A stretch of DNA of 51,553 nt from a bacterium (GCA_020048935.1 JAIFLS010000029.1:1-51553), one strand, 5' to 3'; shown: positions 2,937-42,390, numbered from the stretch's first letter. Numbers and translations: made by a program. Notes: generated by a model from the letters alone, not told the origin.

Positions 2937-3061
2937 TTCTCTCCTTGTTTAGTTGCAATAAAAAAGTGCGCAATGGTTCTTGGGGCCGATGATAGCAGGA
3001 TTGCTGCCATGCGCTCGGCGGCAACGATTGCCGGTAGCGGCGTTTAAACTACCGGCATTCA

Positions 3062-5671: not shown

Positions 5672-6706
5672 TTAGGGGGGGGCGATGAGCGTGGTGCCGT
5701 CGTTGGATCCCCATATTGAGTAGTAGTGCGTGATATAGGGGGGGGTGTTGGTGTGGAGCATCGCCTGATTGGTTCCCTGGTAGACGAGGGTGCCGTCGTT
5801 GGTGGTGGCGGGATAGGTGTTGGTGCTGAAACGCAAATGAGCCAGGTCGCTTTCGAAACCGATCGTGGTCGGCTGCGCCCACCGTAATGATACGCGATTA
5901 TCAAGCGCGGTGGCCCGCAGGTTGATATCGCCGTAGACGGTGTCGCGGAAGGCGGCGACGGTTGCGGCTGTGTTACGAATCGTGCGGGCGTTGTCGCGCT
6001 GGTCGGCAATGCCGGTGGCAACGGAGTTGAAATTTACGCTTGGATTTGAGAAGTAGCCGATACGTGTACCGGGGGCGTATGCCATGATGGTGCGGTATTG
6101 CACGCTGTTTGCCCAGAAACGGTGTCCGTAGGAATAGGCGTAGGCTGCGCTGCTGGTAGCGCTGTCTGGATCATGGTTGCAGCCCAGATTATGGCCGACT
6201 TCATGGACGAACGTGAACTGGGTTGCATAATCCTGCCGGGTTACGGAAAAGGCCCAGTTCGCGAATATACTACTGTTTGTGTTCATCACGTAGCCCATGC
6301 CTGAATAGCCGCCGGTGTCTGTGCGCCCGGTAAAGAGGGTTACGACATCGGCACCGTATTGGTCGCGCAGGGTGTGTGCGCTATCCATGTGACCGTCCGT
6401 CGTGCCCTTCAGCCGTTCGAGCTCGGTTTGTAGGTTTCCTGTTTCTGCATAGGCGATTTCAGCAAGATGCACCAGTCGTAACACTGCCTGCGCCTGGCTG
6501 GTGCTCAAGGAAAGGTTGGCTTGGGATATGGCGGCATCGATTCTTGAAATGATGCCCGATTGTCCACCGGCGGCTGTGCGGGCTTCGGCGGTGTAGACGG
6601 CCAGCACATCAATCGTCTGGGCCAGAATGGGGTCATCAATGTGGCATAGCGAGGCGAGTAATGCGCTGAAAATCAGCTTTATGCGTATCGGGTTGCGTGC
6701 TCTCAT
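5672..6706 (-). CDS. Reprolysin-like (M12B-type) zinc metalloprotease with a C-terminal FN3-like domain
   Basis: Zn-binding motif FVHEVGHNLGCNHD (HExxHxxGxxHD). N-terminal signal-like segment IRIKLIFSALLASLC. The C-terminal ~80 aa are shared with the 16268..20062 protein. Confidence 0.85.
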   Translation of the reverse strand: MRARNPIRIKLIFSALLASLCHIDDPILAQTIDVLAVYTAEARTAAGGQSGIISRIDAAISQANLSLSTSQAQAVLRLVHLAEIAYAETGNLQTELERLKGTTDGHMDSAHTLRDQYGADVVTLFTGRTDTGGYSGMGYVMNTNSSIFANWAFSVTRQDYATQFTFVHEVGHNLGCNHDPDSATSSAAYAYSYGHRFWANSVQYRTIMAYAPGTRIGYFSNPSVNFNSVATGIADQRDNARTIRNTAATVAAFRDTVYGDINLRATALDNRVSLRWAQPTTIGFESDLAHLRFSTNTYPATTNDGTLVYQGTNQAMLHTNTPPYITHYYSIWGSNDGTTLIAPP

Positions 6707-8846: not shown

Positions 8847-8998
8847 AGCTGCTTATACTGCCGTGTTATCGCTTGGAATTCAATAAAGGTTTTTTCAATT
8901 GTTCGCCATATTCAATGGCATCCATCCTGCTTGACAGGCGTCTTGTCTGCAGGTGGATTAAGCAAGCGGGACATGTCGTCTTGCAGGAGGATCATGTT

Positions 8999-10072
8999 AT
9001 GACATATGCCGAACCGTTAAGTTTCTTAAAAGGAGCCAGGGTGATGATCACGGGGGGGACGGGATCCCTCGGGCATGCGTTAACACGAATTCTGTTAAGC
9101 GAAAGTCAGGTGTCCAGTGTAATTATCTTCAGTCGTGACGAGTATAAGCAGTACCAGATGCAGTTGCAAATGCCCGCGAACGCGCTGAAACGGATGCGAT
9201 TTTTCCTAGGAGATGTGCGTGACGAGCAGCGGTTGCGCCGTGCCATGCGCGGTGTCGATTACGTGATTCATGCGGCGGCACTTAAGCATGTTCCGGCGGC
9301 GGAGTATAATCCGTTCGAATTCATCAAGACCAATGTCATGGGCGCGGAAAATGTCATCAACGCCTGTCTGGACACGGGCGTAAAGCGTGTGGTCGCGCTA
9401 AGTACGGATAAAGCCGCGACACCGATTAATTTGTATGGGGCGACTAAATTATGTTCGGACAAGCTTTTTGTGTCGGGGAACAACTACAGTGGTAAAAACC
9501 CGACGCGTTTTGCTGTCGTTCGCTATGGCAACGTGGTTGGAAGCCGGGGCAGTGTGGTCCCCTTTTTCCTGCAGGAGCGGGCCAAGGGCGTCTTGCCGAT
9601 CACCGATCGGAATATGACCCGATTCTGGATTACGATCGAACAAGGGGCGTGGCTGGTATTCAATGCGTTGCGCCAAATGGCGGGGGGCGAGATCTTTGTC
9701 CCGCGAATTCCCAGTATGCGAGTCGAGGAATTGGCGCGGACCATAGCGCCGGAATGCGAAATGAAGGAAGTCGGCATTCGGCCCGGGGAGAAAATGCATG
9801 AGGTGATGGTCCCGTTGGATGATGGTCGGTCCACAATGGCCTTTGATACCCATTTTGTAATTCTTCCCCAGCAATCGTTGCCGCAATGGGCCATCAAGGC
9901 TGACGATTGCATTGCCAGGGGTGGCAAACCTTGCCCCTCCGATTTCTATTTCGGCAGCGATAACAATACCGAATGGCTACAGAACGGTGAATTAGCCCGG
10001 ATGATTGCCTGTCTTGATCTACCGGAAGCCCAGGCGTGGTCTCTTGAACGTGGTCTCAGTGGGCATTCGTGA
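8999..10072 (+). CDS. pseB: UDP-N-acetylglucosamine 4,6-dehydratase (inverting), PseB/FlaA1 type
   Basis: ITGGTGSLG, FFLGDVRD, HAAALKHVPAAEYNP, LSTDKAATPINLYGATKLCSDKLF, VRYGNVVGSRGSVVPFF and MTRFWIT are near-colinear with FlaA1/PseB as I recall it. I prefer the ATG at 8999 because AGGAGG lies 8984-8989; the track ORF starts at 8873. Confidence 0.9.
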   Translation: MTYAEPLSFLKGARVMITGGTGSLGHALTRILLSESQVSSVIIFSRDEYKQYQMQLQMPANALKRMRFFLGDVRDEQRLRRAMRGVDYVIHAAALKHVPAAEYNPFEFIKTNVMGAENVINACLDTGVKRVVALSTDKAATPINLYGATKLCSDKLFVSGNNYSGKNPTRFAVVRYGNVVGSRGSVVPFFLQERAKGVLPITDRNMTRFWITIEQGAWLVFNALRQMAGGEIFVPRIPSMRVEELARTIAPECEMKEVGIRPGEKMHEVMVPLDDGRSTMAFDTHFVILPQQSLPQWAIKADDCIARGGKPCPSDFYFGSDNNTEWLQNGELARMIACLDLPEAQAWSLERGLSGHS

Positions 10073-11229
10073 GCATGAAAAAGATTCCTTATGGCCGGCA
10101 TACGATCACGGAGCAGGATATCGAAGCCGTGGTTCACGTGCTGCGTTCCGATACCTTGACGCAAGGGCCTTGCATTGCTGCGTTTGAGGCCGCATTTGCC
10201 GACTATGTCGGGGCTCCCTATGCCGTGGCCGTAACCAATGGCACCGCCGCGCTGCATCTCTGTGCGTTGGCCTTGGGCGTACAGCCGGGGCAAAAGGTCA
10301 TTACGACGCCAATCACCTTTGCGGCGACCGCCAATTGCGCCCGGTTCGTAGGGGCCGAAGTCGTTTTTGCCGATATTGATCCGGAAACGTATCTGCTGGA
10401 TATTACCCAAGTGGAAACCCTATTGGCGACGGCCCCGAAAGGAACCTACGCCGCCATCATCCCCGTTGATTTTGCAGGCAGGGCGGTTGACCTTGAGGCA
10501 TACCGTCAGCTGGCCGATGCGTATGGATGCCGTCTGATCGAGGATGCCTGCCACGCCCCCGGTGGCTTCTTTACGGATGCCGCGGGCCAGAGACAAGGCT
10601 GCGGCAATGGTCAGTTCGCGGATGCCTCTGTTTTTTCATTTCACCCCGTCAAGCATATCGCGGCGGGTGAGGGGGGCATGATAACCACTGCCAGCCGCGC
10701 GCTATATGAACACTTGCGGAACCTGCGGACGCATGGCATCCAGCAGATTCCCGAAAAACGGGAGCAGAATCACGGCGTCTGGTACTACGAAATGCAGATG
10801 CTGGGGTACAACTACCGGATGACCGATATCCAGGCTGCATTAGGGACGAGTCAGTTAACGCGCGCCGGGCAGGGCTTGCAACGGCGACATGCGTTAGCGA
10901 GAACGTATCAGGAAGCCTTAGCAGGTCAGGCGTTTATAACGCATTTGCCTTCATACTCCGAGGGGCACGCCTACCACCTGTTCGTCGCTGAATTCAAGAA
11001 TCGTGATGGACTGATCATGCATTTGCGTGAAAAGGGAATCTTTGCCCAGGTCCATTATATCCCGTTGCACCTGATGCCGTATTTCCGTGACCAGGGGGGA
11101 TGGAAGGCAGGTGATTTGCCCTGTGCGGAAGCCTATTACCGTGGCTGCCTGAGCCTTCCGCTTTACCCGGCTTTAAGCGATACGGAGCAACAGTATGTCA
11201 TCAAATCCGTGTTTGATTTTTACGGATGA
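10069..11229 (+). CDS. pseC: UDP-4-amino-4,6-dideoxy-N-acetyl-beta-L-altrosamine transaminase (DegT/PseC family)
   Basis: IPYGRHTITEQDIEAVVHVLRSDTLTQGP, TNGTAALHL, SFHPVKHIAAGEGG (PLP-Lys region), GYNYRMTDIQAALG. It overlaps the pseB stop by 4 nt, or starts at the ATG at 10075. Confidence 0.9.
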   Translation: MSMKKIPYGRHTITEQDIEAVVHVLRSDTLTQGPCIAAFEAAFADYVGAPYAVAVTNGTAALHLCALALGVQPGQKVITTPITFAATANCARFVGAEVVFADIDPETYLLDITQVETLLATAPKGTYAAIIPVDFAGRAVDLEAYRQLADAYGCRLIEDACHAPGGFFTDAAGQRQGCGNGQFADASVFSFHPVKHIAAGEGGMITTASRALYEHLRNLRTHGIQQIPEKREQNHGVWYYEMQMLGYNYRMTDIQAALGTSQLTRAGQGLQRRHALARTYQEALAGQAFITHLPSYSEGHAYHLFVAEFKNRDGLIMHLREKGIFAQVHYIPLHLMPYFRDQGGWKAGDLPCAEAYYRGCLSLPLYPALSDTEQQYVIKSVFDFYG

Positions 11230-11304: not shown

Positions 11305-11985
11305 ATGGCAGCTATTGTGGCGGCAGGGACCGTCGGGAGCAAAACGTTGAAGTCGTCGGTTACATCTGGATACCGCACGGGCAAAACGACCGTTTCATGG
11401 CGGAGTCGTGCTGCCCCAGTTTATTCTTTTTCCCTCATGTTTCTTATGTATTTCGGGGTTACAGTAGTAGCCTCGGATCAAACCACTATTGCTCAGCCGG
11501 ACCTTCAGGTCGGTGGATTTTCTGTTTTCGGGACGAATGTGACGGGAGCCACCAGCGTGACCTCGGGGTGGGGCAGCGTTTATATGGACGGCAATCTCCA
11601 GGTCAATTCCAATGTGGTGGTCAACGGGCAGATCGTGAGCACCAACCTAGTACAAGTCAGGCGCATTGCTATCAGCAAGAATGATCAATTATTGACGGCT
11701 GGATCGGCGATCCAGCCGGTTTCGTCGTATGTCCGTGTGCGTGGTGATACGGAGCCGGTCTCACTGGGTAGCCCGCAGATCGCGGCCGGTCAGCCGGGGC
11801 AGTTGCTGACGTTGCAAGGCGTGGCGAGCGGATTGAAGGTGAACCTGGTCAACGGGAATGGCTTGCGGACCAATCTGGAGCAGCCGTTCAGCCTCGGGGA
11901 ATACGATACGATCCAGTTTATTTTTGATGACAGTAGCGGTAATTGGGTGGAGATCAACAGGAGTAACAATCGATGGAGCAACTAA
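11305..11985 (+). CDS. Hypothetical protein sharing a ~85-aa C-terminal module with the downstream fibre protein
   Basis: The C-terminus (SYVRVRGDTEPVSLGSPQIAAGQPGQLLTLQG...YDTIQFIFDDSSGNWVEI) aligns with the C-terminus of the 12112..15726 product. The start is uncertain; an alternative ATG at 11437 gives MFLMYFGVTVVA. Confidence 0.6.
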   Translation: MAAIVAAGTVGSKTLKSSVTSGYRTGKTTVSWRSRAAPVYSFSLMFLMYFGVTVVASDQTTIAQPDLQVGGFSVFGTNVTGATSVTSGWGSVYMDGNLQVNSNVVVNGQIVSTNLVQVRRIAISKNDQLLTAGSAIQPVSSYVRVRGDTEPVSLGSPQIAAGQPGQLLTLQGVASGLKVNLVNGNGLRTNLEQPFSLGEYDTIQFIFDDSSGNWVEINRSNNRWSN

Positions 11986-12111
11986 CAGGAGAAGCTCATG
12001 TATGAAAAACCAGGATGCAGGCGGCCTTTAATACGCCTGAAACACGCGGACCTTGTCAGGTTCGGCAACAACGGGCAGGAAACGAGTACACAACAGGAAA
12101 CAGGAGGAAGC

Positions 12112-15100
12112 ATGAAGAGGGTATGGCAGTTATTAACGCTGGCATTGGGGTTTGTGGCAGGGACAACAGCACTCGCCGTTGAGGACGGACTGGGTACGAA
12201 CCATGTGCGCACGCTCAAGGTTTATAACGGGATTCTGCTCGGAGGGGAGACGATTACGAGCTGGGAAGACGTTTCCGGCAGTACGTTGACAAATAATTCC
12301 ATCGCGACCGGTATGATCCAAAATGGGGCCGTGACGGCGGATAAGATCGGTGCAGCCGTGGCTGGTGCCGGTTTGACCGGAGGCGCGGGCAGTGCGCTCG
12401 CGGTTGGGCAAGGCGACGGTATCAGCGTTGGGGCCGATGCGGTGGCCGTGGACAGTACGGTCATTCGTAATACCGGCAACCAGACCGTCTCGGGGATCAA
12501 GACCTTTGACGGGACGGTGATCGTGCCGGCCCCGTCGGCGGATACGCATGCGTCCACCAAGAAATATGTCGATGACAAGCTCAGCAGTTCGGTGGCCTCG
12601 GGCTCCGCTAGCAACCAAACCTTGCGCTGGACCGGCACGGTATGGACCAATACCGCCGGGCTGACCGTGGATGGCAGCAGTAACGTCGCCGTCGGCGGCA
12701 CGCTGGGCGTTACCGGCATCAGCACCCTTTCGGCCACGACCACCTCGACCACGAAGGACACGGGGGCCCTGGTTGTCGAAGGCGGCGTGGGTGTCGAGGA
12801 AAACCTCAACGTCGGTGGTAACATTGCGGCCACCGGTAATATCGGAGCGTCCGGAAATCTGACGACGACAGGCGATCTTTCGGTGAATGGCAACACGACG
12901 CTTGGGAATGCGGGCACGGATACGATTACCTTCACTGGCAAGGCGGCCAGTAGCCTGAATATGGACAATACCTACACGGTAACCGGGCTGGCCGCTCCAT
13001 CTGCAGATGCGGATGCGGCGACCAAGCTATACGTCGACAGCGCCATCAATGGGCTCTCGTGGAAAGCGCCCGTCGTGGCATCGACCGATGGAAACATTAA
13101 TCTGGGTGCTACTCTCGACGGCGTCGTCATTGATAGCGTCGTCACCTTGGCGGTAGGTGACCGCCTCTTGGTGCGCGCCCAGTCGACCGCCAGCCAGAAC
13201 GGTATCTATGTGGTCAATGCGGGCGTCGCCACGCGGGCGACTGATCTGGATGCGACGGCGGAACTCGCTGGAGCAGCCGTATTTGTAAGGGGTGGTACCG
13301 CCCGCGCCGGCACGGCGTGGGTCTGCACAACCCCGGGCATTACGCTGGGTTCGGCTACGCTGACCTTTACGCAGTTCGCCTCCCCCGGAACGTATACAGC
13401 AGGGGACGGGCTCAATCTGGCCGGACTGGAGTTCTCGGTCGATGCGGCCGATATTACCGGTGCTGGTCTTGAAGTCAACGGGAGCGATATCCGTATTGCT
13501 GCCGCTGCGGCTGGCGCTGGTTTGACCGGCGGTGCCGGCAGTGCGTTGGCCGTAGGAGCTGGCGATGGTATCTCCGTGGCGGCTGACGCCGTGGCGGTGG
13601 ACTCCACCGTTATTCGTACAACCGGAGCACAATCGATTGCCGATGTCAAAACGTTCACATCCTCCCCGGTCGTGCCAACGCCGACCACGGACATGCAGGC
13701 GTCCACCAAGAAATATGTCGACGACAAGCTGAGCAGCTCGGTGTCGAGTGGGGCGTCGACGAATGAAACCTTGCGATGGACCGGAACAACCTGGACGAAT
13801 ACCGCCGGACTGACGATTGATGCAAGTTCCAATGTGATCGTCGCGGCCTCGACCCAGTCAACGACCAAGGATACGGGGGCACTGATCGTTGAAGGCGGCG
13901 TGGGCGTTGAGAAGAACCTCTATGTCGGCGGCGCGGCTGGCGTGACGGGGAATATCACCGTTGGCGGTACGGCAGGGATCACGGGCATCACGACGTTGTC
14001 GGCTTCGACCGCCTCGACCGACAAGGATACTGGAGCGTTGGTCGTCGAGGGTGGCGTCGGTGTCGAGGGTGCGATCAATGCCGGTGGTGCGATTGCCGCC
14101 GTCGGGAATCTATCGGCTGGGGGCAACATCACCGCGACAGGGGATATTTCCGCGAACGGCAATACGACACTCGGTAATGCGGGTACGGATACGATCACCT
14201 TCACGGCCAAGGCGGCTAGTGACCTGAACATGAATACCTCTTATAAAGTGACCGGACTGGCGGCCCCGACCGCAGCGGCCGATGCGGCCACCAAGCTGTA
14301 TGTTGACAGTGCGATCAACGGACTATCCTGGAAAGATGCTGTCAAAGTCGCCACCACGGCTTCCGGCACGTTGTCCTCCTCGTTTGCCAATGGACAGACG
14401 GTGGATGGAATTGCGCTGGTCACCGGTGACCGCATCCTGATCAAGAATCAGAGCAGCCCGGTCGTGAACGGAGTCTATGTCGTCCAGGCTAGCGGAGCCC
14501 CTGTCAGGGCCGAGGATATGAATGCTAGTGATGAACTGGCCGGTGCGGCGGTATTTGTCGCGCAGGGCACCGCCAACAACGGAACGGCTTGGGTATGTAC
14601 CACGCCCCTTGCCGCGATTGGGACAGAAGACCTCACCTTCACACAATTCGCTTCGCCCGGCACTTACAGTGCGGGTGACGGCATGGATCTGGCCGGGCTG
14701 GTGTTCTCTGCCAAACCGGCTGATTTCGCAGGTACGGGCCTGGAGGTCAACAGCGGTGACCTGCGCATTGCGGCCGCTGCGGCCGGTGACGGGTTGACGG
14801 GCGGTGGCGGAAGTGCGCTGGCGGTCAACACCAGCGTGGTTCGGACGACCGGTGCTCAATCGATCGCCGATGTGAAGACCTTCACCTCCTCCCCGGTCGT
14901 GCCAACGCCGACCACGGATATGCAGGCGTCCACCAAGAAGTATGTCGATGACAAACTCAACAGTTCGGTGGCCTCGGGGTCCGCTAGCAACGACACCTTG
15001 CGCTGGACCGGCACGGTATGGACCAATACCGCCGGGCTGACCGTGGACGGCAGCAGTAACGTCGCCGTCGGCGGCACGCTGGGCGTTACCGGCATCACCA

Positions 15101-15726
15101 CCCTCTCCGCGACGACCACCTCGACGACCAAGGACAATGGCGCGTTGGTTGTGCAAGGCGGCGTGGGTGTCGAGGAGAACCTCAACGTCGGCGGTGCTGT
15201 GAAAGTGGCCTCCACGACGGCATCAACCGATAAGGATAGCGGCGCACTGGTGCTGGAGGGCGGACTGGGACTGGAAGGGGCCATCAATGCGGGCGGCAAT
15301 ATTGATGGTGCCGGAACGTTGACGATTGATGGAAACACCACGCTGGGTGATGCCGTCGCAACGGATACCGTCACCATCAATGCCAAGACAACTCTGGGTG
15401 GTTCCGTCGTGCTGACGCCGTCCTCTTTGCTTGATATTGCTGTCACAGGAATCACGGCCACCCACATTCAACTGCCATATCTACAGGTGCGCGGAAATGG
15501 AGGACCGATTGATGTTACCGCCAATCCTCAGATTGCCGCTGGCACTGCGGGGCAGATGGTGACACTGCAGGGGATGTCGGACACCAACACATTGAAGCTG
15601 GACGACGGGACCGGGCTTGCTTTGTCCGAGGGGGTCGCGTTTACGCTGAAAGCCGGTCATTTGATCCAGTTTATCTATGACGGCAGCGTTTGGCGCGAGA
15701 CGTTCCGCACGGTTCCGGCACCTTAA
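12112..15726 (+). CDS. Secreted giant fibre protein, phage-tail-fibre-like, with ~2.5 large internal repeats
   Basis: AGGAGGA RBS then the ATG at 12112. Signal peptide MKRVWQLLTLALGFVAGTTALA. Repeated ~390-420-aa units contain tail-fibre-type motifs (..DAATKLYVDSAINGLSWK.., GDR(L/I)L(V/I)..Q....NG(I/V)YVV......RA.D......LAGAAVFV..GT...GTAWVCTT, ASTKKYVDDKL). The repeats are also near-identical at nucleotide level. Confidence 0.8.
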   Translation: MKRVWQLLTLALGFVAGTTALAVEDGLGTNHVRTLKVYNGILLGGETITSWEDVSGSTLTNNSIATGMIQNGAVTADKIGAAVAGAGLTGGAGSALAVGQGDGISVGADAVAVDSTVIRNTGNQTVSGIKTFDGTVIVPAPSADTHASTKKYVDDKLSSSVASGSASNQTLRWTGTVWTNTAGLTVDGSSNVAVGGTLGVTGISTLSATTTSTTKDTGALVVEGGVGVEENLNVGGNIAATGNIGASGNLTTTGDLSVNGNTTLGNAGTDTITFTGKAASSLNMDNTYTVTGLAAPSADADAATKLYVDSAINGLSWKAPVVASTDGNINLGATLDGVVIDSVVTLAVGDRLLVRAQSTASQNGIYVVNAGVATRATDLDATAELAGAAVFVRGGTARAGTAWVCTTPGITLGSATLTFTQFASPGTYTAGDGLNLAGLEFSVDAADITGAGLEVNGSDIRIAAAAAGAGLTGGAGSALAVGAGDGISVAADAVAVDSTVIRTTGAQSIADVKTFTSSPVVPTPTTDMQASTKKYVDDKLSSSVSSGASTNETLRWTGTTWTNTAGLTIDASSNVIVAASTQSTTKDTGALIVEGGVGVEKNLYVGGAAGVTGNITVGGTAGITGITTLSASTASTDKDTGALVVEGGVGVEGAINAGGAIAAVGNLSAGGNITATGDISANGNTTLGNAGTDTITFTAKAASDLNMNTSYKVTGLAAPTAAADAATKLYVDSAINGLSWKDAVKVATTASGTLSSSFANGQTVDGIALVTGDRILIKNQSSPVVNGVYVVQASGAPVRAEDMNASDELAGAAVFVAQGTANNGTAWVCTTPLAAIGTEDLTFTQFASPGTYSAGDGMDLAGLVFSAKPADFAGTGLEVNSGDLRIAAAAAGDGLTGGGGSALAVNTSVVRTTGAQSIADVKTFTSSPVVPTPTTDMQASTKKYVDDKLNSSVASGSASNDTLRWTGTVWTNTAGLTVDGSSNVAVGGTLGVTGITTLSATTTSTTKDNGALVVQGGVGVEENLNVGGAVKVASTTASTDKDSGALVLEGGLGLEGAINAGGNIDGAGTLTIDGNTTLGDAVATDTVTINAKTTLGGSVVLTPSSLLDIAVTGITATHIQLPYLQVRGNGGPIDVTANPQIAAGTAGQMVTLQGMSDTNTLKLDDGTGLALSEGVAFTLKAGHLIQFIYDGSVWRETFRTVPAP

Positions 15727-15733: not shown

Positions 15734-16234
15734 ATGATGAAAGGACCGTATAGAGGGAAATGGCTGCTGCTGTTGCTGGTGCCCGTCGGGATATGGGGTG
15801 CTGGCGCAGCAGCGGTCCACGACGGGGAAGGGACCAGTCATGTCGGGGCGCTGAGTGCCACGTCCATTGCCCTGGGCGGCGATCAGCGTGCCCAATGGCC
15901 TGCACGTAATGCCAGTGCCGGGGGTGGCCCTTTCGACTTCAGGACGCATTCAAACCAGGTGTTCTGGACGTCGGCCGTCCTTTCAAGTGGCCTGCTCAAG
16001 AATGTAAAGGTGCAGGTGGATCAAGGGACGGCAGCGATCAATATTGTCCGTGCCAAGTGGACTGACGCCTGGGGCACGTACAGCGTGGTCGGCGGTTTTG
16101 AAGCCGATGGCAGTGGAGCGACGTTTACCAACTGGACGTCGGCCTGGGTGAGTAATGACTATCGCCTTGGTGTTGTCGTGACCAACTTTACGACCGGTAC
16201 GAACCTATGGTGGTCGATCGAGTACAGCCGGTGA
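15734..16234 (+). CDS. Small exported protein; its N-terminus is similar to that of the fibre protein
   Basis: The ATG at 15734 lies 8 nt after the fibre gene stop. Signal peptide KWLLLLLVPVGIWGAGAAA. AVHDGEGTSHVGAL....LGG....W parallels AVEDGLGTNHVRTL....LGG....W in the fibre protein. Confidence 0.6.
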   Translation: MMKGPYRGKWLLLLLVPVGIWGAGAAAVHDGEGTSHVGALSATSIALGGDQRAQWPARNASAGGGPFDFRTHSNQVFWTSAVLSSGLLKNVKVQVDQGTAAINIVRAKWTDAWGTYSVVGGFEADGSGATFTNWTSAWVSNDYRLGVVVTNFTTGTNLWWSIEYSR

Positions 16235-16267: not shown

Positions 16268-19200
16268 ATGCGAAACGCGATTACCATAACGGGGTTGCTC
16301 CTGACCGCTTGCCTAGCGGTGTCCGGCCAGGTGCATTATGTCTCGCACTGGGGATCGCATACGCCGCCGTTTGATTCCTGGGAAACCGCGGCTACCAACG
16401 TGGTTGATGCGCTTGACGTGGCGTCTGACGGTGCGGTTGTCTGGGTCACGAATGGCGTCTACCGCAGCGGTAGCGCCGATGTCGGCGGGCTTCATGCACG
16501 CGCGTATATAACGCGCGCGATCACGTTGGGCAGCATCAATGGCGCGAGCCATACGGTGCTTGAGGGGGCCTTTCACAGCGCGAGCGTGCCGGTCGGTTCG
16601 GATGCGGTGCGGACGCTGTACATGACCAATGGCGTTCTCGACGGCTTTACATTGCGCCGGGGCGGCACGGCGGAGGCGGGCGACGAATCCGCGATTTCCG
16701 GTGGTGGTGTCTATGCCGATGGCGGCGTGCTTCGCAATATCCGTGTCGCGGGGAATCATGGCCAGACGGCCGGTGGGGCCTGGCTCCAGAATTGCAGTGT
16801 CAGTAACGCCGTTTTCTCCGCCAACCTTTCCGAAACCGGACCGCGGGTCAAAATCAACAGGCAGGTCTTTTTGGAGAACTGCCGTTTCAACAGCGACGGC
16901 ATGATGTTTCCGGATGCTCGCATTCTCGGGACTAATGGCGTGGAAATCGTGAATGGAGACGATGCAACCTCGGTGGACCTCGGGACGCACTTCGGGCAGG
17001 TGCATGCCATTACTGCCGCGGTCAGTCATGTTTTCATGGTGACCAATCAGGGCGTCAGGCCGCTGTTGGTCAGTGATGTCGCCTTTCAGGGCGGCAACAC
17101 GAACGACTGGGCCGTCCTCGGGTGGCCCGGCAGTGGCATTGAGCCGGGCGCATCGGCACCGTTGACCATCCGCTTCGATCCCCAGGCCCCGGGCGTTCGT
17201 CGTACGCTTCTTTTTGCCTTCAATAATGACCCCGACGATGATCCCTACGCCCTCTGGTTGAGTGGCGAGGGCGTCCAGGCGGAAATGCTCGTGCTGGCGA
17301 CGAATGATTACAGCGTACTCAGCAACGGGGTGGTGAACCCATTGCTTGCGCAGGGCACCGACTTCGGGGATGTCCGTCTCACCGGTGATCCGGCTGCAAA
17401 CGCCTACATTGTCACGAATACTGGCAGTGCGACAATGCATATCTCGTCGATCGCGGCCAGCCAGATGAATGCCTCTGATTTTTCTGTGACCGACCCCGCT
17501 GCGTTCCCCGTCTCCGTAGCGCCGGGCGGCACCAATACGGCCACGCTGGTGTTTGCGCCACAGGCGCTCGGGTATCGGGCAACGCTGCTGCGGGTCGAGA
17601 GCGATGCGGTCAATAGTCCCTACCTCTTCGGCATCATCGGGCGTGGCGTGGAGCCGGAGATGCGTGTACTGGGAACGAACAGCGCCTGGGTGGTCAATGG
17701 CGACAGCACCCCCGCATTCGCCGACGGTACGGATTTCGGCTTGTTCACGGCGGCTCCCATTGTCCGAACCTTTTCCATCACCAATGCGGGTAGCCATTTG
17801 CTGACGCTGACCGGTACGGCGCATGTCGTCATGCGGGGTGCCAATCCAGCCGACTTCACCGTGACGGCCCAGCCGGTTTCCCAGATTGCGCCAGCAAGTG
17901 CCGCTACTTTCACGATATCCTTCACGCCGTTGGTGGCCACGTCGCGCACGGCGGAGGTCTTTGTTTACAGCGATGATGTGTATTATACAAATGCCGTTTA
18001 CCAGTTCAGCATTCGCGGCGCGTGTGATCCCGCCAACCTGTTTGCCAATATCCAGGCCGATGTTCGACCCGCTAGCTCGGTGGCGATGGCCTGGGGCGAT
18101 TTCAATAACGACGGCCTCGCCGATCTGGCGGTATGCGGCAACGATGGTAGCGAACGCTTTACCTCGCTCAATATGAACCTCGGTGGCGGCAGTTTCAGCA
18201 ATATCAATGCTGGGTTGCCCGGGGTAGACTCCGGGCAGCTCGCCTGGGGCGATTGCAATAATGATGGCTGGCTGGATCTGGCGGTTTCGGGTATCAGTAC
18301 CAGCGGTCCGCTGACTGCGGTATTCCGCAATAATAGCGATAGCACGTTCAGCAACATCGATGCAGGGCTCACGGGACTTTATGCGGGCGGGCTGGCGTGG
18401 GGTGATCTGGATAACGACGGCGACCTGGATCTATTCGTGTCCGGTTATACGCTCAGCGACTCCGCCAGCCCGCTTTACCGGAATAATGGGGATGAAACCT
18501 TCACGCTCGTCAGCACCTCGATTCCGGACCTGCGCGATGGTCAGGCGGCCTGGCTGGATGCGGATCAGGATGGCTGGCAGGATCTGCTGGTCAGCGGTCA
18601 GTCCGGCGAAGACCGTATAGCCAGGGTTTACCGCAACATCAGTGGTGTCCTGACGAATCAGGCAAACGCGGGGCTAGCGGGTGTTTCGCATGGTGGCTTT
18701 GCGATCGCCGATTTCAATAATGACGGTATGGCCGATATCGCCACGACGGGCTACGGGACGGAGGGAAGGCTGAGCGATGTGTACACGTACGGCGGTTCAA
18801 ACAGTCTTTATACGATTACGACGACCTCGCTGGAGCCGCTCTGGCTAGGGCGCGCCGCCGCGGGCGATCTGGATAATAACGGATGGATGGACTTGATGCT
18901 TTCCGGTGAAGGATCGGGTGGGGTGCGGGCAACGCGACTCTATATGAATCACAGTGGCACTTTCTCGAATATCACATCTGCCATTCCCGATTTGCGCGTA
19001 TCAAGCATGGTGTTTGGTGACTATGACGATGACGGCGATCTGGATACTGCCGTTGCCGGATTGTCGGCAACGGGTCAATTCTCGGCCATTTATCGGAACC
19101 TGTCTGCTGCCTCGAATCAACCCCCCAGTGCACCGGCAGGATTGATGGCAACGTTGACCAACGGAAATGAGGTCGCATTGCGCTGGGATGCGGCGACGGA

Positions 19201-20062
19201 TGACAAGACCACTGCCGGATCCTTAACCTACAACCTGTATGTCGGAACCAGTATGAATCCTGTTGGTTTACTCAGTCCGCATTCGGATTTGGCGACGGGG
19301 AAACGCCGTGTGTTCTCGACAGGCAACACCGGGCACCGGCGGGAATGGCGTGTGCGGAACCTGCCGGTCGGCGAAACGATAGTTTGGGGGGTCCAGGCGG
19401 TTGATGGGGGCTATGCCGGAAGTCTGTTCACGAATGGAGCGCCCATCGCGGTGCCGGCCTTACCCGACTTCGTGGTCAGTGGCATCCACATCCAGCTTGT
19501 GCCGTTCAGTGCCGCCGTCACGATTCTCAATCAGGGAACGACCGCCGCGAGCGCGGGTCGGCTGTCGGTATGGCTGAATCGTGCGACAGTCCCTGTTGAC
19601 GGCCAGGGGGCCGACGTCACGCAGAGCGTCGGCGAGCTTATGCCAGGGGCAACCAACACGGTGGTCTTCACCAATTTCACGATTCCAACCAATACCGCGA
19701 CCCACGTGTTCCGTGCCTTCATCAATAGCGACCGGGTGGAGGATGAAAGCAACAAGGATAATAACCAACTCGCCCTCACGTATGTTCATACGGTTTATGA
19801 GCCGTTCTGGTTCCGTGCGGTGGCGCTGACAAACAACGTCTACCTGCGCTGGATCAATCCCACTAATATAGGCATGCAATCATCACAGGTGCTCATTCAT
19901 CATGGCACCACCAACTACCCGGCCAGTCCGGCGGAAGGCGCGCCGATTTACCAGGGATCCGCGCAGGTCTATGAACATACCGGCATCACCCCCGGTCATG
20001 TCAATTTCTACACCATCTGGTTGACCAACGACGAGACCAACTGGCTGGATCCGCCGCGGTAG
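16268..20062 (+). CDS. Large secreted multidomain protein: beta-helix-like N-region, 3 Ig-like (choice-of-anchor-D/ASH-like) repeats, 7 FG-GAP/VCBS repeats, FN3, CARDB-like, C-terminal FN3-like module
   Basis: Signal peptide MRNAITITGLLLTACLAVSGQ. Seven WGD(F/C/L)NNDG..DL-type repeats. PPSAPAGL..LRWDAATDD looks like FN3. The C-terminal YLRWINPTNIG...YPASPAEGAPIYQG...FYTIW is shared with the metalloprotease. Confidence 0.85.
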   Translation: MRNAITITGLLLTACLAVSGQVHYVSHWGSHTPPFDSWETAATNVVDALDVASDGAVVWVTNGVYRSGSADVGGLHARAYITRAITLGSINGASHTVLEGAFHSASVPVGSDAVRTLYMTNGVLDGFTLRRGGTAEAGDESAISGGGVYADGGVLRNIRVAGNHGQTAGGAWLQNCSVSNAVFSANLSETGPRVKINRQVFLENCRFNSDGMMFPDARILGTNGVEIVNGDDATSVDLGTHFGQVHAITAAVSHVFMVTNQGVRPLLVSDVAFQGGNTNDWAVLGWPGSGIEPGASAPLTIRFDPQAPGVRRTLLFAFNNDPDDDPYALWLSGEGVQAEMLVLATNDYSVLSNGVVNPLLAQGTDFGDVRLTGDPAANAYIVTNTGSATMHISSIAASQMNASDFSVTDPAAFPVSVAPGGTNTATLVFAPQALGYRATLLRVESDAVNSPYLFGIIGRGVEPEMRVLGTNSAWVVNGDSTPAFADGTDFGLFTAAPIVRTFSITNAGSHLLTLTGTAHVVMRGANPADFTVTAQPVSQIAPASAATFTISFTPLVATSRTAEVFVYSDDVYYTNAVYQFSIRGACDPANLFANIQADVRPASSVAMAWGDFNNDGLADLAVCGNDGSERFTSLNMNLGGGSFSNINAGLPGVDSGQLAWGDCNNDGWLDLAVSGISTSGPLTAVFRNNSDSTFSNIDAGLTGLYAGGLAWGDLDNDGDLDLFVSGYTLSDSASPLYRNNGDETFTLVSTSIPDLRDGQAAWLDADQDGWQDLLVSGQSGEDRIARVYRNISGVLTNQANAGLAGVSHGGFAIADFNNDGMADIATTGYGTEGRLSDVYTYGGSNSLYTITTTSLEPLWLGRAAAGDLDNNGWMDLMLSGEGSGGVRATRLYMNHSGTFSNITSAIPDLRVSSMVFGDYDDDGDLDTAVAGLSATGQFSAIYRNLSAASNQPPSAPAGLMATLTNGNEVALRWDAATDDKTTAGSLTYNLYVGTSMNPVGLLSPHSDLATGKRRVFSTGNTGHRREWRVRNLPVGETIVWGVQAVDGGYAGSLFTNGAPIAVPALPDFVVSGIHIQLVPFSAAVTILNQGTTAASAGRLSVWLNRATVPVDGQGADVTQSVGELMPGATNTVVFTNFTIPTNTATHVFRAFINSDRVEDESNKDNNQLALTYVHTVYEPFWFRAVALTNNVYLRWINPTNIGMQSSQVLIHHGTTNYPASPAEGAPIYQGSAQVYEHTGITPGHVNFYTIWLTNDETNWLDPPR

Positions 20063-24144: not shown

Positions 24145-25827
24145 GTGATGATGGTTTGGTTTTCCACTATAAGCAAAAAATCGAGGTGGTCAGTGATAGA
24201 GAGCGTGGCAGGGCTTTACGGTGTATTGGCGGGGTTGGGCCTCTTCTTTGGTGTGGCGGTGGCCTGTGTTGGCGGCGAGGCGTTGCAGGTGCGTATTCCG
24301 CAGCTTGCCCAGTCGGTTCGGAACGCTGAGGCGATCGAATCTCTCGAGGTGGTGCCGGATCGCGATAAGGCCGATATCACGGTTCCTCAGCCGGTGGCGG
24401 TGCCGGAACTGCGCGAGGCGGAGTCCAGTGCATCGGCACTCAAGGCGCGTATCACCTTGCTGGAGATGGAGGTGCGGACTGCCAAAAAGTCGCTCGAGAC
24501 CTTTCAGGCAGAGGCGGAACTGAAGCTCAACGACCTGCTGGATGCGATTGAGGCAGACAAGAAGCGCCAGACGGAAGTCGAGGCCCGGTTGCAGGTGGCG
24601 TCGGACGCGCTGGAAGCCCAGAAGACAGCGTCGACGGAAGCGCTGGACGCGCAGAAGGCATCGTCGGCCGAGGTTTTGGCCGAGTTGCAGCGGCAACTCG
24701 AGGAGGCGGCAGCGAAACTGGCGGAGGAGCGACGTCTGGCCGAGGCGGCGGCCGTGCTGCAGAAATTGCGCGAGGCCGATCTGCAGGCGCGCGTCGAGCA
24801 CATGATGGCGGCGGGGGAAGGTGCTCAACTTCAGGTATCCTCGCTGGAGCAGACGCTGGAGCAACTTCGGGGGCAGTTTGACGCGGTGACGGCGCGGCTG
24901 CCGGTCCGCGAACTGGAGATAGAGCGTGAGATCGACCGCATCGACCAGGCCTCGCTGGCGCTTGCGCTTGACGAGATCGAGCGCCTGGAACTGGAGCAGG
25001 CTGCAGGTGACGCGGTGGTCTTGCAGCAGCAGGCCCTGTTGCAGGAGCAGATCGAGGCGCTACAGAAACAGGCGGCTGAGTCGGGCGAGGCCCTGGCTAG
25101 CGCCGCGCGCGAACTCGAGGGGGAGCGGCGGTTGAGTTTCGAGCTGGAAGCGAGATCCAAGGTGCAATCGAAATCACTCGAGGAGACCGGCGCGATGCTC
25201 GCAGAGGCCAAGGCGGCCCTGGCGCGGCATTACGACTCCATTCGCGAACAACTGCAGGCGGGCTCGAGCATGCGCCTGGAGGACGGTGTGAAGGGGGGCG
25301 AGGGGGAGAAGCTGTTCACGCTATCGACGGACCTGGTTCCACTGATCGGTCAACTGGATGCGGCCACCGCCACGGCGATAGCCGACGTCAAGGCACTGCG
25401 CGAGCAGCTTGAGCGCGAGCGAGCCTTTTTCGCGGCTGCTGCGGTGGAGAAGGACTCCGAGCTGTCGGCCGTGCGGGCCGAGCTGGTGGAGATGCAGCAG
25501 CGGGTAAAGGCGATCTCGGAAGACGCATCCGCTCGCGCCACCGAGATGGAATCGGCGCATGCGGCCGCGCTGGCGGCCATGACGGAGGAGCATGCCCTGT
25601 GCATAGCTGGCCTGAAAGGCGAGCTTGATGGATTGAGGAAAGCGGTGAAAGTCCGCGATCGTGAAATCGGGATGCTGGAGAATGATCTGAAGGCCGAGCG
25701 CGACAGCACGGTACGGGTGCTGGACGATGTGCGCGAGACCGAAGCGACCCTCACCGCGAGGATGCGCGAGCTGGAAACCGAGTTCGCTCTGCCGGATACC
25801 GACGTCCCCCGCCGCGAACAACCGTGA
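24145..25827 (+). CDS. Membrane-anchored long coiled-coil protein (Ala/Glu/Leu-rich)
   Basis: N-terminal TM segment VAGLYGVLAGLGLFFGVAVACVG followed by ~480 aa of heptad-like A/E/L/Q/R sequence. The start codon is uncertain. Confidence 0.6.
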   Translation: MMMVWFSTISKKSRWSVIESVAGLYGVLAGLGLFFGVAVACVGGEALQVRIPQLAQSVRNAEAIESLEVVPDRDKADITVPQPVAVPELREAESSASALKARITLLEMEVRTAKKSLETFQAEAELKLNDLLDAIEADKKRQTEVEARLQVASDALEAQKTASTEALDAQKASSAEVLAELQRQLEEAAAKLAEERRLAEAAAVLQKLREADLQARVEHMMAAGEGAQLQVSSLEQTLEQLRGQFDAVTARLPVRELEIEREIDRIDQASLALALDEIERLELEQAAGDAVVLQQQALLQEQIEALQKQAAESGEALASAARELEGERRLSFELEARSKVQSKSLEETGAMLAEAKAALARHYDSIREQLQAGSSMRLEDGVKGGEGEKLFTLSTDLVPLIGQLDAATATAIADVKALREQLERERAFFAAAAVEKDSELSAVRAELVEMQQRVKAISEDASARATEMESAHAAALAAMTEEHALCIAGLKGELDGLRKAVKVRDREIGMLENDLKAERDSTVRVLDDVRETEATLTARMRELETEFALPDTDVPRREQP

Positions 25828-41693: not shown

Positions 41694-42164
41694 TCAGTCA
41701 CGGGGAGCCGATTCGGAGGCTTTGAGTTCTTCCAAGGCCTCGGCATCTGCCAAATCCTTAGTTCTGCCCGATGCGCGCTTGTTGGTGACAAGGTCATCAA
41801 CCGAGGGAATCCGCACCTGGATTCCCTCAATCTCCACAATCAATGAATTCCTGAATGTAGGCTCAAACTGCAGTCCCGAGGCGGCGGTGATGATATCGAT
41901 CCGTCTTGGAGCAACACCGATTTGAAACACCGTTCCCTCTTTCTCAAAATCGGCTCTGCTGACATTGTGCAGGGGAGCACCGAAGCGAAGAAGTGCCCGC
42001 AAAACACCATCAGCATTGTCTGGTGACGGCAACACCCAGATATCAATGTCCATTGTTGCCCGCGGATACCCGTAGGCAGCTAAGGCGTATGCCCCTACGA
42101 GAAGGAAATTAACCTTCTCGTCGACTAATGCCTGCAACATGTCTCTGTAATCTTCGTTCAACAT
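41694..42164 (-). CDS. Nucleotidyltransferase-fold protein (DUF6036/AbiEii-like), putative toxin-antitoxin-type cassette gene
   Basis: VNFLLVGAYALAAYGYPRATMDIDIWV (NTase G-x/DxD-like core), ..RIDIITA.., IPSVDDLVTNKRASGRTKDLADAEAL. Confidence 0.6.
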   Translation of the reverse strand: MLNEDYRDMLQALVDEKVNFLLVGAYALAAYGYPRATMDIDIWVLPSPDNADGVLRALLRFGAPLHNVSRADFEKEGTVFQIGVAPRRIDIITAASGLQFEPTFRNSLIVEIEGIQVRIPSVDDLVTNKRASGRTKDLADAEALEELKASESAPRD

Positions 42165-42300
42165 TATGACGTTTGCTCAGCGATGCGACTTCACGGGTGA
42201 GGGGCCAAACGAGACCGATTCGTTCTGCAGGCGTCCCGGGTACTATCTCGTTGGCCGGGGCGCCCGTCATTCGAAATGTAACTGTGTGCGTGCGATCCAT
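42109..42300 (-). CDS. Small partner protein of the nucleotidyltransferase (63 aa)
   Basis: ATG at 42300. MDRTHTVTFRMTG...PAERIGLVWPLTREV....RLQRHV.. It overlaps the downstream NTase ORF by 56 nt in another frame. Confidence 0.45.
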   Translation of the reverse strand: MDRTHTVTFRMTGAPANEIVPGTPAERIGLVWPLTREVASLSKRHNVERRLQRHVAGISRREG

Positions 42301-42345
42301 ATAATAATAGTACCAATATTCGCGATTGCAGCAATCTTTATCTAT

Positions 42346-42390
42346 CCCGCCAGCCAGTAGCCAGTGTTGCACTGGCTACTGGCTGGCGGG
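42346..42390. repeat. Perfect 21-bp inverted repeat with a 3-nt loop
   Basis: cccgccagccagtagccagtg-ttg-cactggctactggctggcggg, read directly. No AAC/GTT ends and no T-tract. Confidence 0.9.

What the first reader, a model, noticed from the sequence alone, without database searches (positions are those of the whole stretch)
12112..15726. Phage-tail-fibre-like 1204-aa protein with a Sec signal peptide, a mosaic internal repeat structure and no prophage context
The protein carries motifs typical of phage tail fibres (..DAATKLYVD.., ASTKKYVDDKL, the GDR.L...Q...NG.Y.V...RA.D...AGAAVFV..GT..GTAW block). It nevertheless starts with a signal peptide, and I see no capsid, terminase or tail genes nearby. 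It consists of about 2.5 units of 390-420 aa. At nucleotide level the third unit is chimeric:
- 14840-14940 matches unit 2 (13615-13715).
- 14929-15194 matches unit 1 (12553-12816), with identical runs of ~50 nt.
This indicates recent intragenic recombination or gene conversion and potential length and sequence variation. It may be a host-encoded trimeric surface fibre or adhesin.
Basis: partly seen in the sequence, partly recalled or inferred. Interest (0 to 1): 0.7.

Follow-up and report, generated by a model that had tools for sequence, protein, structure and literature searches.

The report
Host-encoded phage-like secreted fibre protein
An uncultured Kiritimatiellae-type bacterium carries, in a conserved chromosomal four-gene cassette, a secreted 1204-residue fibre protein built from phage tail-fibre and capsid-spike modules whose internal repeats have recently exchanged DNA; this is an interesting but not unprecedented case of bacteria re-using phage fibre parts.

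Summary
ATG 12112 to stop 15726 encodes a 1204-aa protein with a Sec-type leader and about 2.5 internal units.

Unit 3 is a DNA mosaic: 85% identical to unit 2, then 91% identical to unit 1. Silent sites are homogenised too. Two other metagenome assemblies reproduce it, so it is not a mis-assembly.

Every module except the N-terminal one has phage relatives:
- three BppL_N-type necks;
- repetitive stalks, probably beta-helical;
- two heads homologous to the trimeric tail fibre of Legionella phage LME-1 and to a capsid decoration protein;
- a C-terminal Phage_depo_C beta-sandwich.

No phage gene was recognised among the ORFs scanned across the 51.5-kb window. The gene sits in a cassette (small protein, fibre, small protein, FG-GAP protein) found in all 11 relative loci that carry a fibre homologue, all from Kiritimatiellae/Verrucomicrobiota MAGs. 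The fibre shares its tip with the upstream protein and its N-terminal motif AVEDGLGTNHV with the downstream one. Relatives carry 0, 1 or 2 heads.

Most likely this is a domesticated, Sec-exported, probably trimeric envelope or surface fibre. The closest concept is the Bdellovibrio MAT fibres. Trimerisation, location and ligand remain untested. I rate it a new variant of a known kind, of moderate interest.

The parts
12102..12107 (+). Shine-Dalgarno AGGAGG, 4 nt before ATG 12112
   Evidence: Read directly from the sequence.
12112..15726 (+). Fibre gene, 1204 aa plus stop.
   Evidence: Identical or near-identical in two other assemblies.
12112..12177 (+). Sec-type signal peptide (aa 1-22, MKR + hydrophobic core + ALA|VE). 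No Cys, so not a lipoprotein.
   Evidence: By inspection. Orthologue conservation starts right after it. No signal-peptide predictor was available.
12178..12366 (+). Conserved N-terminal module (aa 23-85), starting AVEDGLGTNHVR. A candidate docking or anchoring module.
   Evidence: Nearly invariant in 16 orthologues. The same motif opens the mature downstream small protein. An exhaustive phmmer search of aa 18-70 found only 9 representatives.
12367..12591 (+). Neck A1 (aa 86-160): a copy of the ..VIRxTGxQ..KTF.. motif that Pfam BppL_N matches, followed by STKKYVDDKL.
   Evidence: Pfam reports three BppL_N stretches and gives coordinates only for the best, aa 496-517 in neck A2. Assigning one to each neck is by motif. 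Segmentation.
12592..12996 (+). Stalk B1 (aa 161-295), with one TGALVVEGGVGVE motif. Short version.
12997..13515 (+). Head C1 (aa 296-468): DAATKLYVD neck plus GDR..NGIY..AAVFV..GTAW globular domain.
   Evidence: PHROG 2647 at 2.6e-33 for this segment alone. 120 phage records. PDB 9efk and 9nx3 by profile.
13516..13740 (+). Neck A2 (aa 469-543)
   Evidence: The best Pfam BppL_N stretch, aa 496-517, lies here.
13741..14265 (+). Stalk B2 (aa 544-718). Long version with a 40-aa insertion carrying a second TGALIVEGGVGVE motif.
14266..14733 (+). Head C2 (aa 719-874)
   Evidence: PDB 9nx3 at 5e-7 with the whole protein as query..
14734..14967 (+). Neck A3 (aa 875-952). 88% aa identical to neck A2.
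14968..15396 (+). Stalk B3 (aa 953-1095). Its first half is a near-copy of stalk B1.
14824..14914 (+). Unit-2-like tract of unit 3 (77-95% nt identity to unit 2, 52-68% to unit 1).
14897..15195 (+). Unit-1-like tract of unit 3. 90% identical over 299 nt to 12521-12819, with a longest exact run of 53 nt; silent sites are homogenised.
15397..15723 (+). C-terminal tip (aa 1096-1204), a beta-sandwich of the Phage_depo_C type.
   Evidence: Pfam PF25692 at 27.7 bits (cut-off 25) when scanned alone. AF2 pLDDT 88-93. Shared with the upstream small protein.
11305..11985 (+). Upstream small protein (up to 226 aa; true start uncertain). Hydrophobic leader, then a region of unknown fold, then the same tip domain as the fibre.
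   Evidence: 40% identity, E 3e-14 to the fibre tip. Present in all ten relative loci that include the DNA upstream of the fibre gene.
15734..16234 (+). Downstream small protein (166 aa): signal peptide, the fibre's N-terminal motif, and a jelly-roll beta-sandwich.
   Evidence: It starts 8 nt after the fibre stop.
16268..20062 (+). 1264-aa secreted protein with FG-GAP, choice-of-anchor D and CARDB domains. Fourth cassette member.
8873..11229 (+). Polysacc_synt_2 sugar-nucleotide dehydratase-family gene plus DegT/DnrJ/EryC1 aminotransferase, directly upstream of the cassette.
   Evidence: Same position in L001, L002, L003 and L005, but not in all loci.

Best explanation
The gene encodes a bacterial protein, not a prophage one. 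It is exported through the Sec pathway and is built as beads on a string from modules inherited from phage virion appendages.

The layout is: a family-specific N-terminal module, then twice [neck - repetitive (probably beta-helical) stalk - globular head], then a further neck and stalk, then a depolymerase-type C-terminal beta-sandwich.

By analogy with its phage relatives it most likely folds as a homotrimeric fibre outside the cytoplasm. I infer the following:
- The invariant N-terminal module docks it to an envelope partner.
- The heads and/or the tip bind a ligand, probably a glycan.
- It works together with the three co-oriented neighbours. The fibre, the downstream small gene and the FG-GAP gene are separated by only 8 and 34 nt. 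The downstream jelly-roll protein carries the same N-terminal motif, so it would use the same docking site. The upstream small protein carries the same tip, so it would meet the same partner or ligand.

The internal repeats exchange DNA by gene conversion or unequal recombination. This homogenises necks and stalks and changes the number of head units over evolutionary time.

Shown here: module homologies, the leader sequence (by inspection), the cassette and its synteny, shared end modules, the mosaic tract, and head-number variation.
Inferred: trimer, surface location, docking role of the N-module, and adhesin function.
For: Phage-module homology:
- Pfam BppL_N matches three times, 61 bits.
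- PHROGs include 2647 at 6e-63 and tail-fibre families.
- The head profile matches the LME-1 tail-fibre chain 9efk at 1.2e-12. PMC12407071 describes that fibre as six trimers. It also matches capsid decoration protein 9nx3 at 1.1e-11.
- The head matches 120 phage genomes.
- The tip matches Phage_depo_C.
- Foldseek gives 117 BFVD hits at E<=1e-3, mostly tail fibres.
- The best PDB fold hits are a phage tailspike depolymerase and the trimeric Pa223 capsid spike.

Host gene:
- No phage genes were recognised among the ORFs scanned in the 51.5-kb window, and there is no tRNA.
- The same four-gene cassette occurs in all 11 relative loci that carry a fibre homologue, with chromosomal neighbours (M12 peptidase, HDOD/GAF, sugar genes). 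Contigs reach 585 kb, and the cassette proteins are only about 40-92% identical to those of the window.

Export: a Sec-type leader with an AXA site is conserved in the orthologues.

Shared ends: tip and N-motif.

Modularity: 0, 1 or 2 heads.

Gene conversion. Within-protein versus between-protein identity is 76% vs 62% for necks and 70% vs 59% for heads, and the two heads of P0004 are 98.9% identical.

Genuine sequence.
Against: - No direct evidence for trimerisation. Only a monomer could be modelled, and the stalks came out at low confidence.
- No evidence for crossing the outer membrane. No secretion system, anchor domain, lipobox or sorting signal was recognised.
- The C-terminal tip is among the most conserved parts. 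In phage receptor-binding proteins and Bdellovibrio MAT fibres the tip is the variable, ligand-specifying part. The tip may therefore be an assembly or partner-binding element rather than the adhesive end.
- No ligand or phenotype is known, and all carriers are uncultured MAGs.
- The fold-search matches to solved structures are weak (best E 1.5e-4, low TM scores).
Confidence: 0.6

Rival explanations
1. It is a tail-fibre gene of a prophage or a decaying prophage remnant, with the rest of the phage outside the window or lost.
For: All recognisable modules have phage homologues.
Against: - No phage genes were recognised among the ORFs scanned in the 51.5-kb window, and there is no tRNA.
- Eleven relative loci show the identical four-gene arrangement with non-phage partners. 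This holds in genomes whose cassette proteins are only 40-60% identical to the window's, including contigs of 134 and 585 kb.
- The reading frames are intact everywhere.
- A Sec leader is not expected on a virion protein assembled in the cytoplasm.
Confidence: 0.04
2. It is the fibre of a phage-derived machine encoded elsewhere in the genome (tailocin or extracellular contractile injection system), with the fibre gene located apart from the main cluster.
For: Such machines use host-encoded phage-type fibres. The module homology is as above.
Against: - Those particles assemble in the cytoplasm, so their fibres lack Sec leaders. Here the leader is conserved.
- No sheath, tube or baseplate genes lie in the window or within 10 kb in the two relative loci for which gene calls with Pfam annotation were returned, L001 and L002.
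- The conserved partners are secreted FG-GAP and jelly-roll proteins.
Confidence: 0.08
3. It is a secreted polysaccharide-binding or polysaccharide-degrading protein (tailspike-like depolymerase or lectin) serving the glycan-degrading lifestyle described for cultured Kiritimatiellae, rather than a structural appendage.
For: - The C-terminal domain belongs to Phage_depo_C.
- The best PDB fold hit is a phage tailspike depolymerase.
- The downstream protein has a jelly-roll fold with weak resemblance to carbohydrate-binding modules.
- Sugar-nucleotide genes lie adjacent.
- The lifestyle statement rests on my own knowledge and was not checked here.
Against: - No catalytic domain (pectate-lyase-type beta-helix, glycoside hydrolase, lyase) is detected by Pfam, NCBIfam or PHROGs.
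- The matches cover necks, stalks, heads and the terminal sandwich only.
- This reading overlaps with the adhesin reading, since binding a glycan is part of both.
Confidence: 0.15
4. The mosaic third unit is a mis-assembly of short reads across repeats.
For: - Repeats inside genes are prone to chimeric assembly.
- A close relative, L005, has a 100-N scaffold gap inside its copy of the gene.
Against: - Contigs from two other JGI metagenome datasets (samples 3300001765 and 3300033509) give the same 3729-nt ORF with 0 and 2 differences. The second differs from the window at 8 positions over 10.7 kb, so it is a separate assembly of a slightly different strain.
- The copies still differ by ~10%, and exact runs are at most 53 nt.
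Confidence: 0.02

Closest known systems
Bdellovibrio bacteriovorus MAT (mosaic adhesive trimer) fibre proteins (Caulton et al. 2024, PMC10769870)
   Same: - Chromosomally encoded, phage-tail-fibre-like proteins of about 1000 aa with a signal peptide.
- A conserved module directly after the leader that is shared between several proteins.
- A long repetitive fibre and a mosaic build (for MAT features; here).
   Different: - MAT proteins are a family of 21 paralogues with a ~130-aa beta-rich N-domain and variable C-terminal tips, 13 of them with an S74 chaperone-protease.
- Here the shared N-motif is found on two proteins of one cassette, no S74 domain is present, and the tip is conserved.
- Here the variable parts are internal heads homologous to capsid-decoration and tail-fibre domains.
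- No sequence link to solved MAT fragments was found.
- The carrier is a PVC-group MAG with no evidence of predation.
Legionella phage LME-1 tail fibre (PDB 9efk chain 'orf22'; PMC12407071) and the 'capsid decoration protein' of PDB 9nx3
   Same: The head module, including the DAATKxYVD neck and the GDR..NGIY..AAVFV..GTxW core, is homologous by profile (E 1.2e-12 and 1.1e-11). LME-1 fibres are trimers.
   Different: - Those are virion proteins without leaders and with one such domain.
- Here the domain occurs twice inside a Sec-exported bacterial protein.
- The matched part of the LME-1 fibre may lie in the distal region that the authors did not model.
- I could not find the paper for 9nx3.
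Pseudomonas phage Pa223 capsid spike gp52 (PDB 9ny6; bioRxiv 10.1101/2025.06.11.659172)
   Same: A short N-terminal attachment segment, then a triple beta-helix, then a C-terminal knob, assembled as a homotrimer. It is the second-best solved-structure fold match (E 1.9e-3).
   Different: The match is weak (TM 0.19-0.29). gp52 is 295 aa and binds a capsid. Its knob has a TNF fold, whereas the tip here is of the Phage_depo_C type.
Phage tailspike depolymerases with the Phage_depo_C (PF25692) terminal beta-sandwich
   Same: The C-terminal ~90 aa match the Pfam model above its cut-off. The best PDB fold hit is such a tailspike, Acinetobacter phage Solidus gp83. A profile search found the same domain mostly on proteins of 70-165 aa. 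The one genomic context examined, that of P0163, is a phage-like contig.
   Different: No catalytic beta-helix is detected in the window protein.

Membership tests
Phage virion fibre / appendage proteins (homology of modules) | Recognised fibre N-terminal or neck motif (Pfam BppL_N) | tested here: met
   61.2 bits against a cut-off of 25.8, three stretches.
Phage virion fibre / appendage proteins (homology of modules) | Globular domain shared with characterised virion proteins | tested here: met
   - PHROG 2647 at 6e-63.
- PDB 9efk at 1.2e-12 and 9nx3 at 1.1e-11.
- 120 phage records.
Phage virion fibre / appendage proteins (homology of modules) | Encoded within a phage or prophage genome next to capsid, terminase or tail genes | tested here: not met
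   No such gene was recognised among the ORFs scanned in the 51.5-kb window. In L001 and L002, the two relative loci with gene calls and Pfam annotation, the +/-10 kb flanks carry none. The cassette is syntenic in all 11 relative loci.
Phage virion fibre / appendage proteins (homology of modules) | Homotrimeric assembly | not testable with these tools
   Only monomer prediction was available. The stalks have pLDDT below 50, as expected for an obligate oligomer, but this is not proof.
Bdellovibrio MAT fibre superfamily | Signal peptide followed by a conserved N-terminal domain shared among fibres | tested here: inconclusive
   A leader plus an invariant AVEDGLGTNHV module is present and is shared with the downstream protein. 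Homology to the MAT N-domain could not be tested, because no MAT N-domain sequence or structure was at hand. An exhaustive search with the N-module found only 9 representatives.
Bdellovibrio MAT fibre superfamily | Variable C-terminal tip (S74 chaperone-protease or diverse binding domains) | tested here: not met
   No Peptidase_S74 hit. The tip is among the best conserved regions across 16 orthologues.
Bdellovibrio MAT fibre superfamily | Localisation on the cell surface | not testable with these tools
   Requires microscopy or proteomics.
Trimeric autotransporter adhesins (YadA-like) | C-terminal beta-barrel membrane anchor, plus YadA head and stalk repeats | tested here: not met
   No YadA_anchor, YadA_stalk or YadA_head hit in the Pfam scan of the protein. 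The C-terminus is a soluble beta-sandwich.
Anti-phage defence systems (PADLOC) | Match of any cassette protein to a defence-system model | tested here: not met
   No hits for the four cassette proteins.

The most novel reading that the evidence does not exclude
The four-gene cassette encodes a previously undescribed multi-part envelope appendage of a Kiritimatiellae clade, assembled from domesticated phage virion modules with interchangeable plug-in ends. One N-terminal docking motif is shared by a long fibre and a short jelly-roll knob protein. One tip is shared by the fibre and a small protein. The large FG-GAP protein may serve as a base. Fibre length (0, 1 or 2 heads) and head sequence would be tuned by intragenic recombination to match changing targets, such as particles, glycans or other cells.
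Probability: 0.3. Interest if true: 0.7.

Novelty: new variant of a known kind. Interest (0 to 1): 0.45.

Why it matters
If correct, domestication of phage fibre modules into Sec-exported bacterial fibres would not be peculiar to predatory Bdellovibrio. It would also occur in free-living, uncultured bacteria of the PVC group.

The architecture also differs from the known cases:
- It has internal capsid-decoration-type heads.
- Both ends are conserved.
- The end modules are shared among cassette partners.

The family also offers a clean natural example of concerted evolution and module-number change inside a fibre gene.

Finally, it names four unannotated 'hypothetical' proteins that could be targeted in metatranscriptomes, enrichment cultures or by heterologous expression. 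That would help find out how these glycan-degrading bacteria attach to substrates or neighbours.

Tried and rejected
- Self-blastp of the whole protein returned only the trivial hit. I switched to 100-aa pieces.
- NCBIfam has nothing for the fibre or the small proteins.
- PADLOC has nothing, so a defence-system reading was dropped.
- The tip has no sequence relative in the PDB, either as a single sequence or as a profile, and no significant PHROG. Only Pfam Phage_depo_C matched, and only when the tip was scanned alone.
- A literature search for PDB code 9NX3 found no relevant paper, and the Pakpunavirus paper I opened was unrelated to it. The source phage of that 'capsid decoration protein' stays unidentified.
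- A literature search for Kiritimatiellae plus tail fibre or adhesin returned nothing pertinent.
- The promoter and terminator scan was no better than shuffled sequence.
- I suspected that the FG-GAP protein is a lipoprotein (LTAC). The Cys is not conserved in the orthologues, so I dropped this.
- I first thought the fibre was far more diverged than its flanks in the close relative L005. The 61% figure for the C-terminal part is real. However, L005 has a 100-N gap inside the gene, so its unit number cannot be stated.
- I considered a diversity-generating-retroelement (Mtd-like) reading because some homologues carry Mtd_N. No reverse transcriptase turned up among the ORFs scanned, so I did not pursue it.


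Full report
**1. What is in the sequence**

The ORF 11998..15726 (+) is real.

It gives a 1204-aa protein starting MKRVWQLLTLALGFVAGTTALA|VEDG. That is a basic n-region, a hydrophobic core and an AXA site, with no cysteine, so it is a Sec-type leader by inspection. Conservation among orthologues begins at this leader. The residues just after it, AVEDGLGTNHV, are nearly invariant.

**2. Repeat anatomy**

Comparing 100-aa pieces with the whole protein, and phmmer segmentation of 16 orthologues, gives this layout:

| Part | Residues |
|---|---|
| Leader | 1-22 |
| N-module | 23-85 |
| Neck A1 / stalk B1 / head C1 | 86-160 / 161-295 / 296-468 |
| Neck A2 / stalk B2 / head C2 | 469-543 / 544-718 / 719-874 |
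| Neck A3 / stalk B3 | 875-952 / 953-1095 |
| Unique tip | 1096-1204 |

**3. The mosaic**

- 14840-14940 is 85% identical to 13615-13715 (unit 2), but 66% to the unit-1 equivalent.
- 14929-15194 is 91% identical to 12553-12816 (unit 1), with a 53-nt exact run, but 57% to the unit-2 equivalent.
- blastn reports 299 nt at 90%.

A codon alignment of the three units shows a single switch at about 14914-14944. This lies in the stretch encoding STKKYVDDKL, where all three copies are alike.

In the unit-1-like tract, third-position identity in same-residue codons is 84%, against 46-51% elsewhere. No permutation out of 2000 reaches the observed clustering. This is therefore recent DNA exchange, not protein-level constraint.

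It is not a mis-assembly. A contig from JGI sample 3300001765 carries the identical 3729-nt ORF. A contig from sample 3300033509 differs from the window at 8 positions over 10.7 kb and carries the ORF with 2 differences and the same length.

**4. What the modules are**

- **Necks.** Pfam finds BppL_N three times (61 bits).
- **Heads.** They are the strongest link to phages.
  - PHROG 2647 'head decoration' matches at 6e-63, with eleven further virion, tail-fibre and unassigned PHROGs.
  - A profile of 13 heads matches the tail-fibre chain of Legionella phage LME-1 at 1.2e-12 (PDB 9efk, 18 chains; the paper describes six trimers).
  - The same profile matches a 'capsid decoration protein' (9nx3) at 1.1e-11.
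  - One head alone matches 120 deposited phage genomes at 40-47% identity. These are annotated variously as tail fibre, head decoration or virion protein.
- **Tip.**
  - Scanned alone, it matches Pfam Phage_depo_C above the curated cut-off (27.7 vs 25 bits).
  - A profile of tips finds 107 proteins, mostly 70-165 aa. The one context I looked at is a phage-like 44-kb contig with an SU10-type adaptor.
- **Structure model.**
  - An AlphaFold2 monomer model of aa 690-1204 is confident for the tip (pLDDT 88-93), moderate for the head and poor for the stalks. Poor stalks are what one expects for an intertwined oligomer modelled alone.
  - Foldseek against viral models gives 117 hits at E<=1e-3, mainly tail fibres.
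  - Against solved structures the matches are weak. The best are a phage tailspike depolymerase (1.5e-4) and the trimeric Pa223 capsid spike (1.9e-3).

**5. Context**

Nothing scanned in the window is phage-like.
- Upstream lie an M12 peptidase, an HDOD/GAF protein, a Polysacc_synt_2 dehydratase-family gene and a DegT aminotransferase.
- Downstream lie MatE, UDP-glucose dehydrogenase, enolase-superfamily, M42 peptidase, PFK, CobS, a symporter and others.
- There is no tRNA and no Rfam match.
- The ORF cut by the left end, a few shorter ORFs and the ORFs without any Pfam match remain uncharacterised.

The fibre is flanked by three co-oriented genes:
- a small upstream protein (11305-11985);
- a small downstream protein, starting 8 nt after the fibre stop;
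- a 1264-aa protein with FG-GAP, choice-of-anchor D and CARDB domains, starting 34 nt further on.

This cassette is present in all 11 relative loci that carry a fibre homologue. They come from MAGs labelled Kiritimatiellae, Verrucomicrobiota or Victivallales, on contigs up to 585 kb. Identity to the window's cassette proteins ranges from about 40% to 92%. The sugar-gene pair sits directly upstream in four of them.

**6. Shared ends**

- The fibre tip is 40% identical (E 3e-14) to the C-terminus of the upstream small protein. The relationship holds across orthologues.
- The mature N-terminus of the downstream small protein carries the fibre's motif. In most orthologues it reads AVEDGLGTNHVG.
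- The downstream protein has only 10 relatives in 5.8 billion sequences. It models as a jelly-roll sandwich with weak resemblance to a phage cement protein, TNF/C1q heads and carbohydrate-binding modules.
- An exhaustive search with the fibre's N-module found only 9 representatives.

**7. Family-level variation**

- Orthologues have two heads in 14 of the 16 aligned, one head (P0011, P0014; 764-782 aa) or none (P0238, 424 aa: N-module, neck, stalk, tip).
- Three relatives replace unit 1's neck and stalk by a different repeat (P0012, P0013, P0015).
- Copies within a protein are more alike than copies between proteins: necks 76% vs 62%, heads 70% vs 59%. Extremes are the two heads of P0004 at 98.9% and two necks of P0008 at 100%.
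- In the window lineage the heads still pair by position with those of P0002. Homogenisation is therefore patchy and lineage-specific.
- Against the close relative L005, flanking proteins are 84-92% identical, whereas the fibre's N part is 78% and its C part 61%. L005 also has a scaffold gap inside the gene.
- Near-identical strains show no length change.

**8. Interpretation**

This is a host gene made of phage fibre parts. It carries an export signal and its repeats recombine.

I think the most likely mechanism is a Sec-exported, homotrimeric beads-on-a-string fibre. It would dock through its invariant N-module and work with its three neighbours (confidence 0.6).

Two points differ from expectation:
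- The tip is conserved rather than variable.
- The variable elements are the internal heads and stalks.

The tip may therefore be a partner-binding or assembly element, and the heads may be the adaptive surfaces.

Rivals:
- A prophage remnant (0.04) and a mis-assembly (0.02) are effectively excluded.
- A fibre of a tailocin-like machine encoded elsewhere (0.08) is unlikely because of the leader.
- A secreted glycan-binding or depolymerase-like protein (0.15) overlaps with the adhesin reading. It lacks any detected catalytic domain.

**9. Comparison with known systems**

The nearest concept is the Bdellovibrio MAT fibre family (PMC10769870). Those are chromosomal, signal-peptide-bearing, phage-like trimeric fibres with a shared N-domain.

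Membership is not supported:
- There is no S74 domain.
- The tip is conserved.
- No sequence link to solved MAT fragments was found.
- The N-domain relationship is untestable here.

It is not a trimeric autotransporter, because Pfam finds no membrane anchor. It does not match any PADLOC defence model.

I rate it a new variant of a known kind, with interest 0.45. It is a well-supported and tidy case with a conserved cassette and unusual architecture. However, it has a precedent, its function is inferred, and its carriers are uncultured.

Noticed in passing
window 5672-6706 (-) and 16268-20062 (+); also L006, L009, L010, L011: The last ~80 aa of the M12/reprolysin-like peptidase resemble the last ~80 aa of the FG-GAP protein (tblastn cross-hits, 37-48% identity). 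They appear to share a C-terminal domain, possibly a common sorting or anchoring module for secreted proteins of this clade.
   Followed up: no
window 1-2948 (-): A long ORF of at least 982 aa runs off the left end of the window. It has an N-terminal leader-like segment (..SKYLSVLLALATMAVIPAYVEA). The ORF listing does not list it because it is cut by the window end. It is another large secreted protein of unknown type.
   Followed up: partly
L005 11027-11126 (CAZSRU010000001.1): The closest relative genome has a 100-N scaffold gap inside its fibre gene, flanked by near-identical repeat segments. The repeats break short-read assembly, so unit counts from MAGs should be treated with care.
   Followed up: yes
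P0238 (424 aa), P0240 (410 aa), from the N-module search: P0238 is a 'headless' family member: N-module, neck, stalk and tip only. P0240 instead joins the N-module and a tip-like end through different repeats (..ITNGAVxTAIIADGAV..). The two ends are constant and the middle is exchangeable.
   Followed up: partly
window 8873-11229 (+): A Polysacc_synt_2 dehydratase-family gene and a DegT-family aminotransferase lie directly upstream of the cassette here and in L001, L002, L003 and L005. From general knowledge, such pairs start pathways for amino-deoxy sugars used in protein or LPS glycosylation. The fibre looks Ser/Thr-rich on reading, so glycosylation of the fibre is a possibility that I did not test.
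   Followed up: no
window ~42000-45200: G+C drops to 0.50-0.53, against ~0.60 elsewhere. The ORFs there have no Pfam match, except a DUF6036 nucleotidyltransferase-like ORF at 41694-42164. This may be a small foreign insert. No integrase or phage gene was seen.
   Followed up: partly
window 24145-25827 (+): A 560-aa protein without a Pfam family has weak SMC-like (coiled-coil) matches in NCBIfam.
   Followed up: no
L012 10001-10465 (Logan SRR29078297 contig, 43.8 kb): A 154-aa protein consisting largely of the Phage_depo_C-type tip sits among unannotated genes of a podophage-like contig with an SU10-type adaptor. A profile search finds the tip domain mostly on such small proteins, several of them on contigs of 35-45 kb, though only this one context was examined.
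   Followed up: partly
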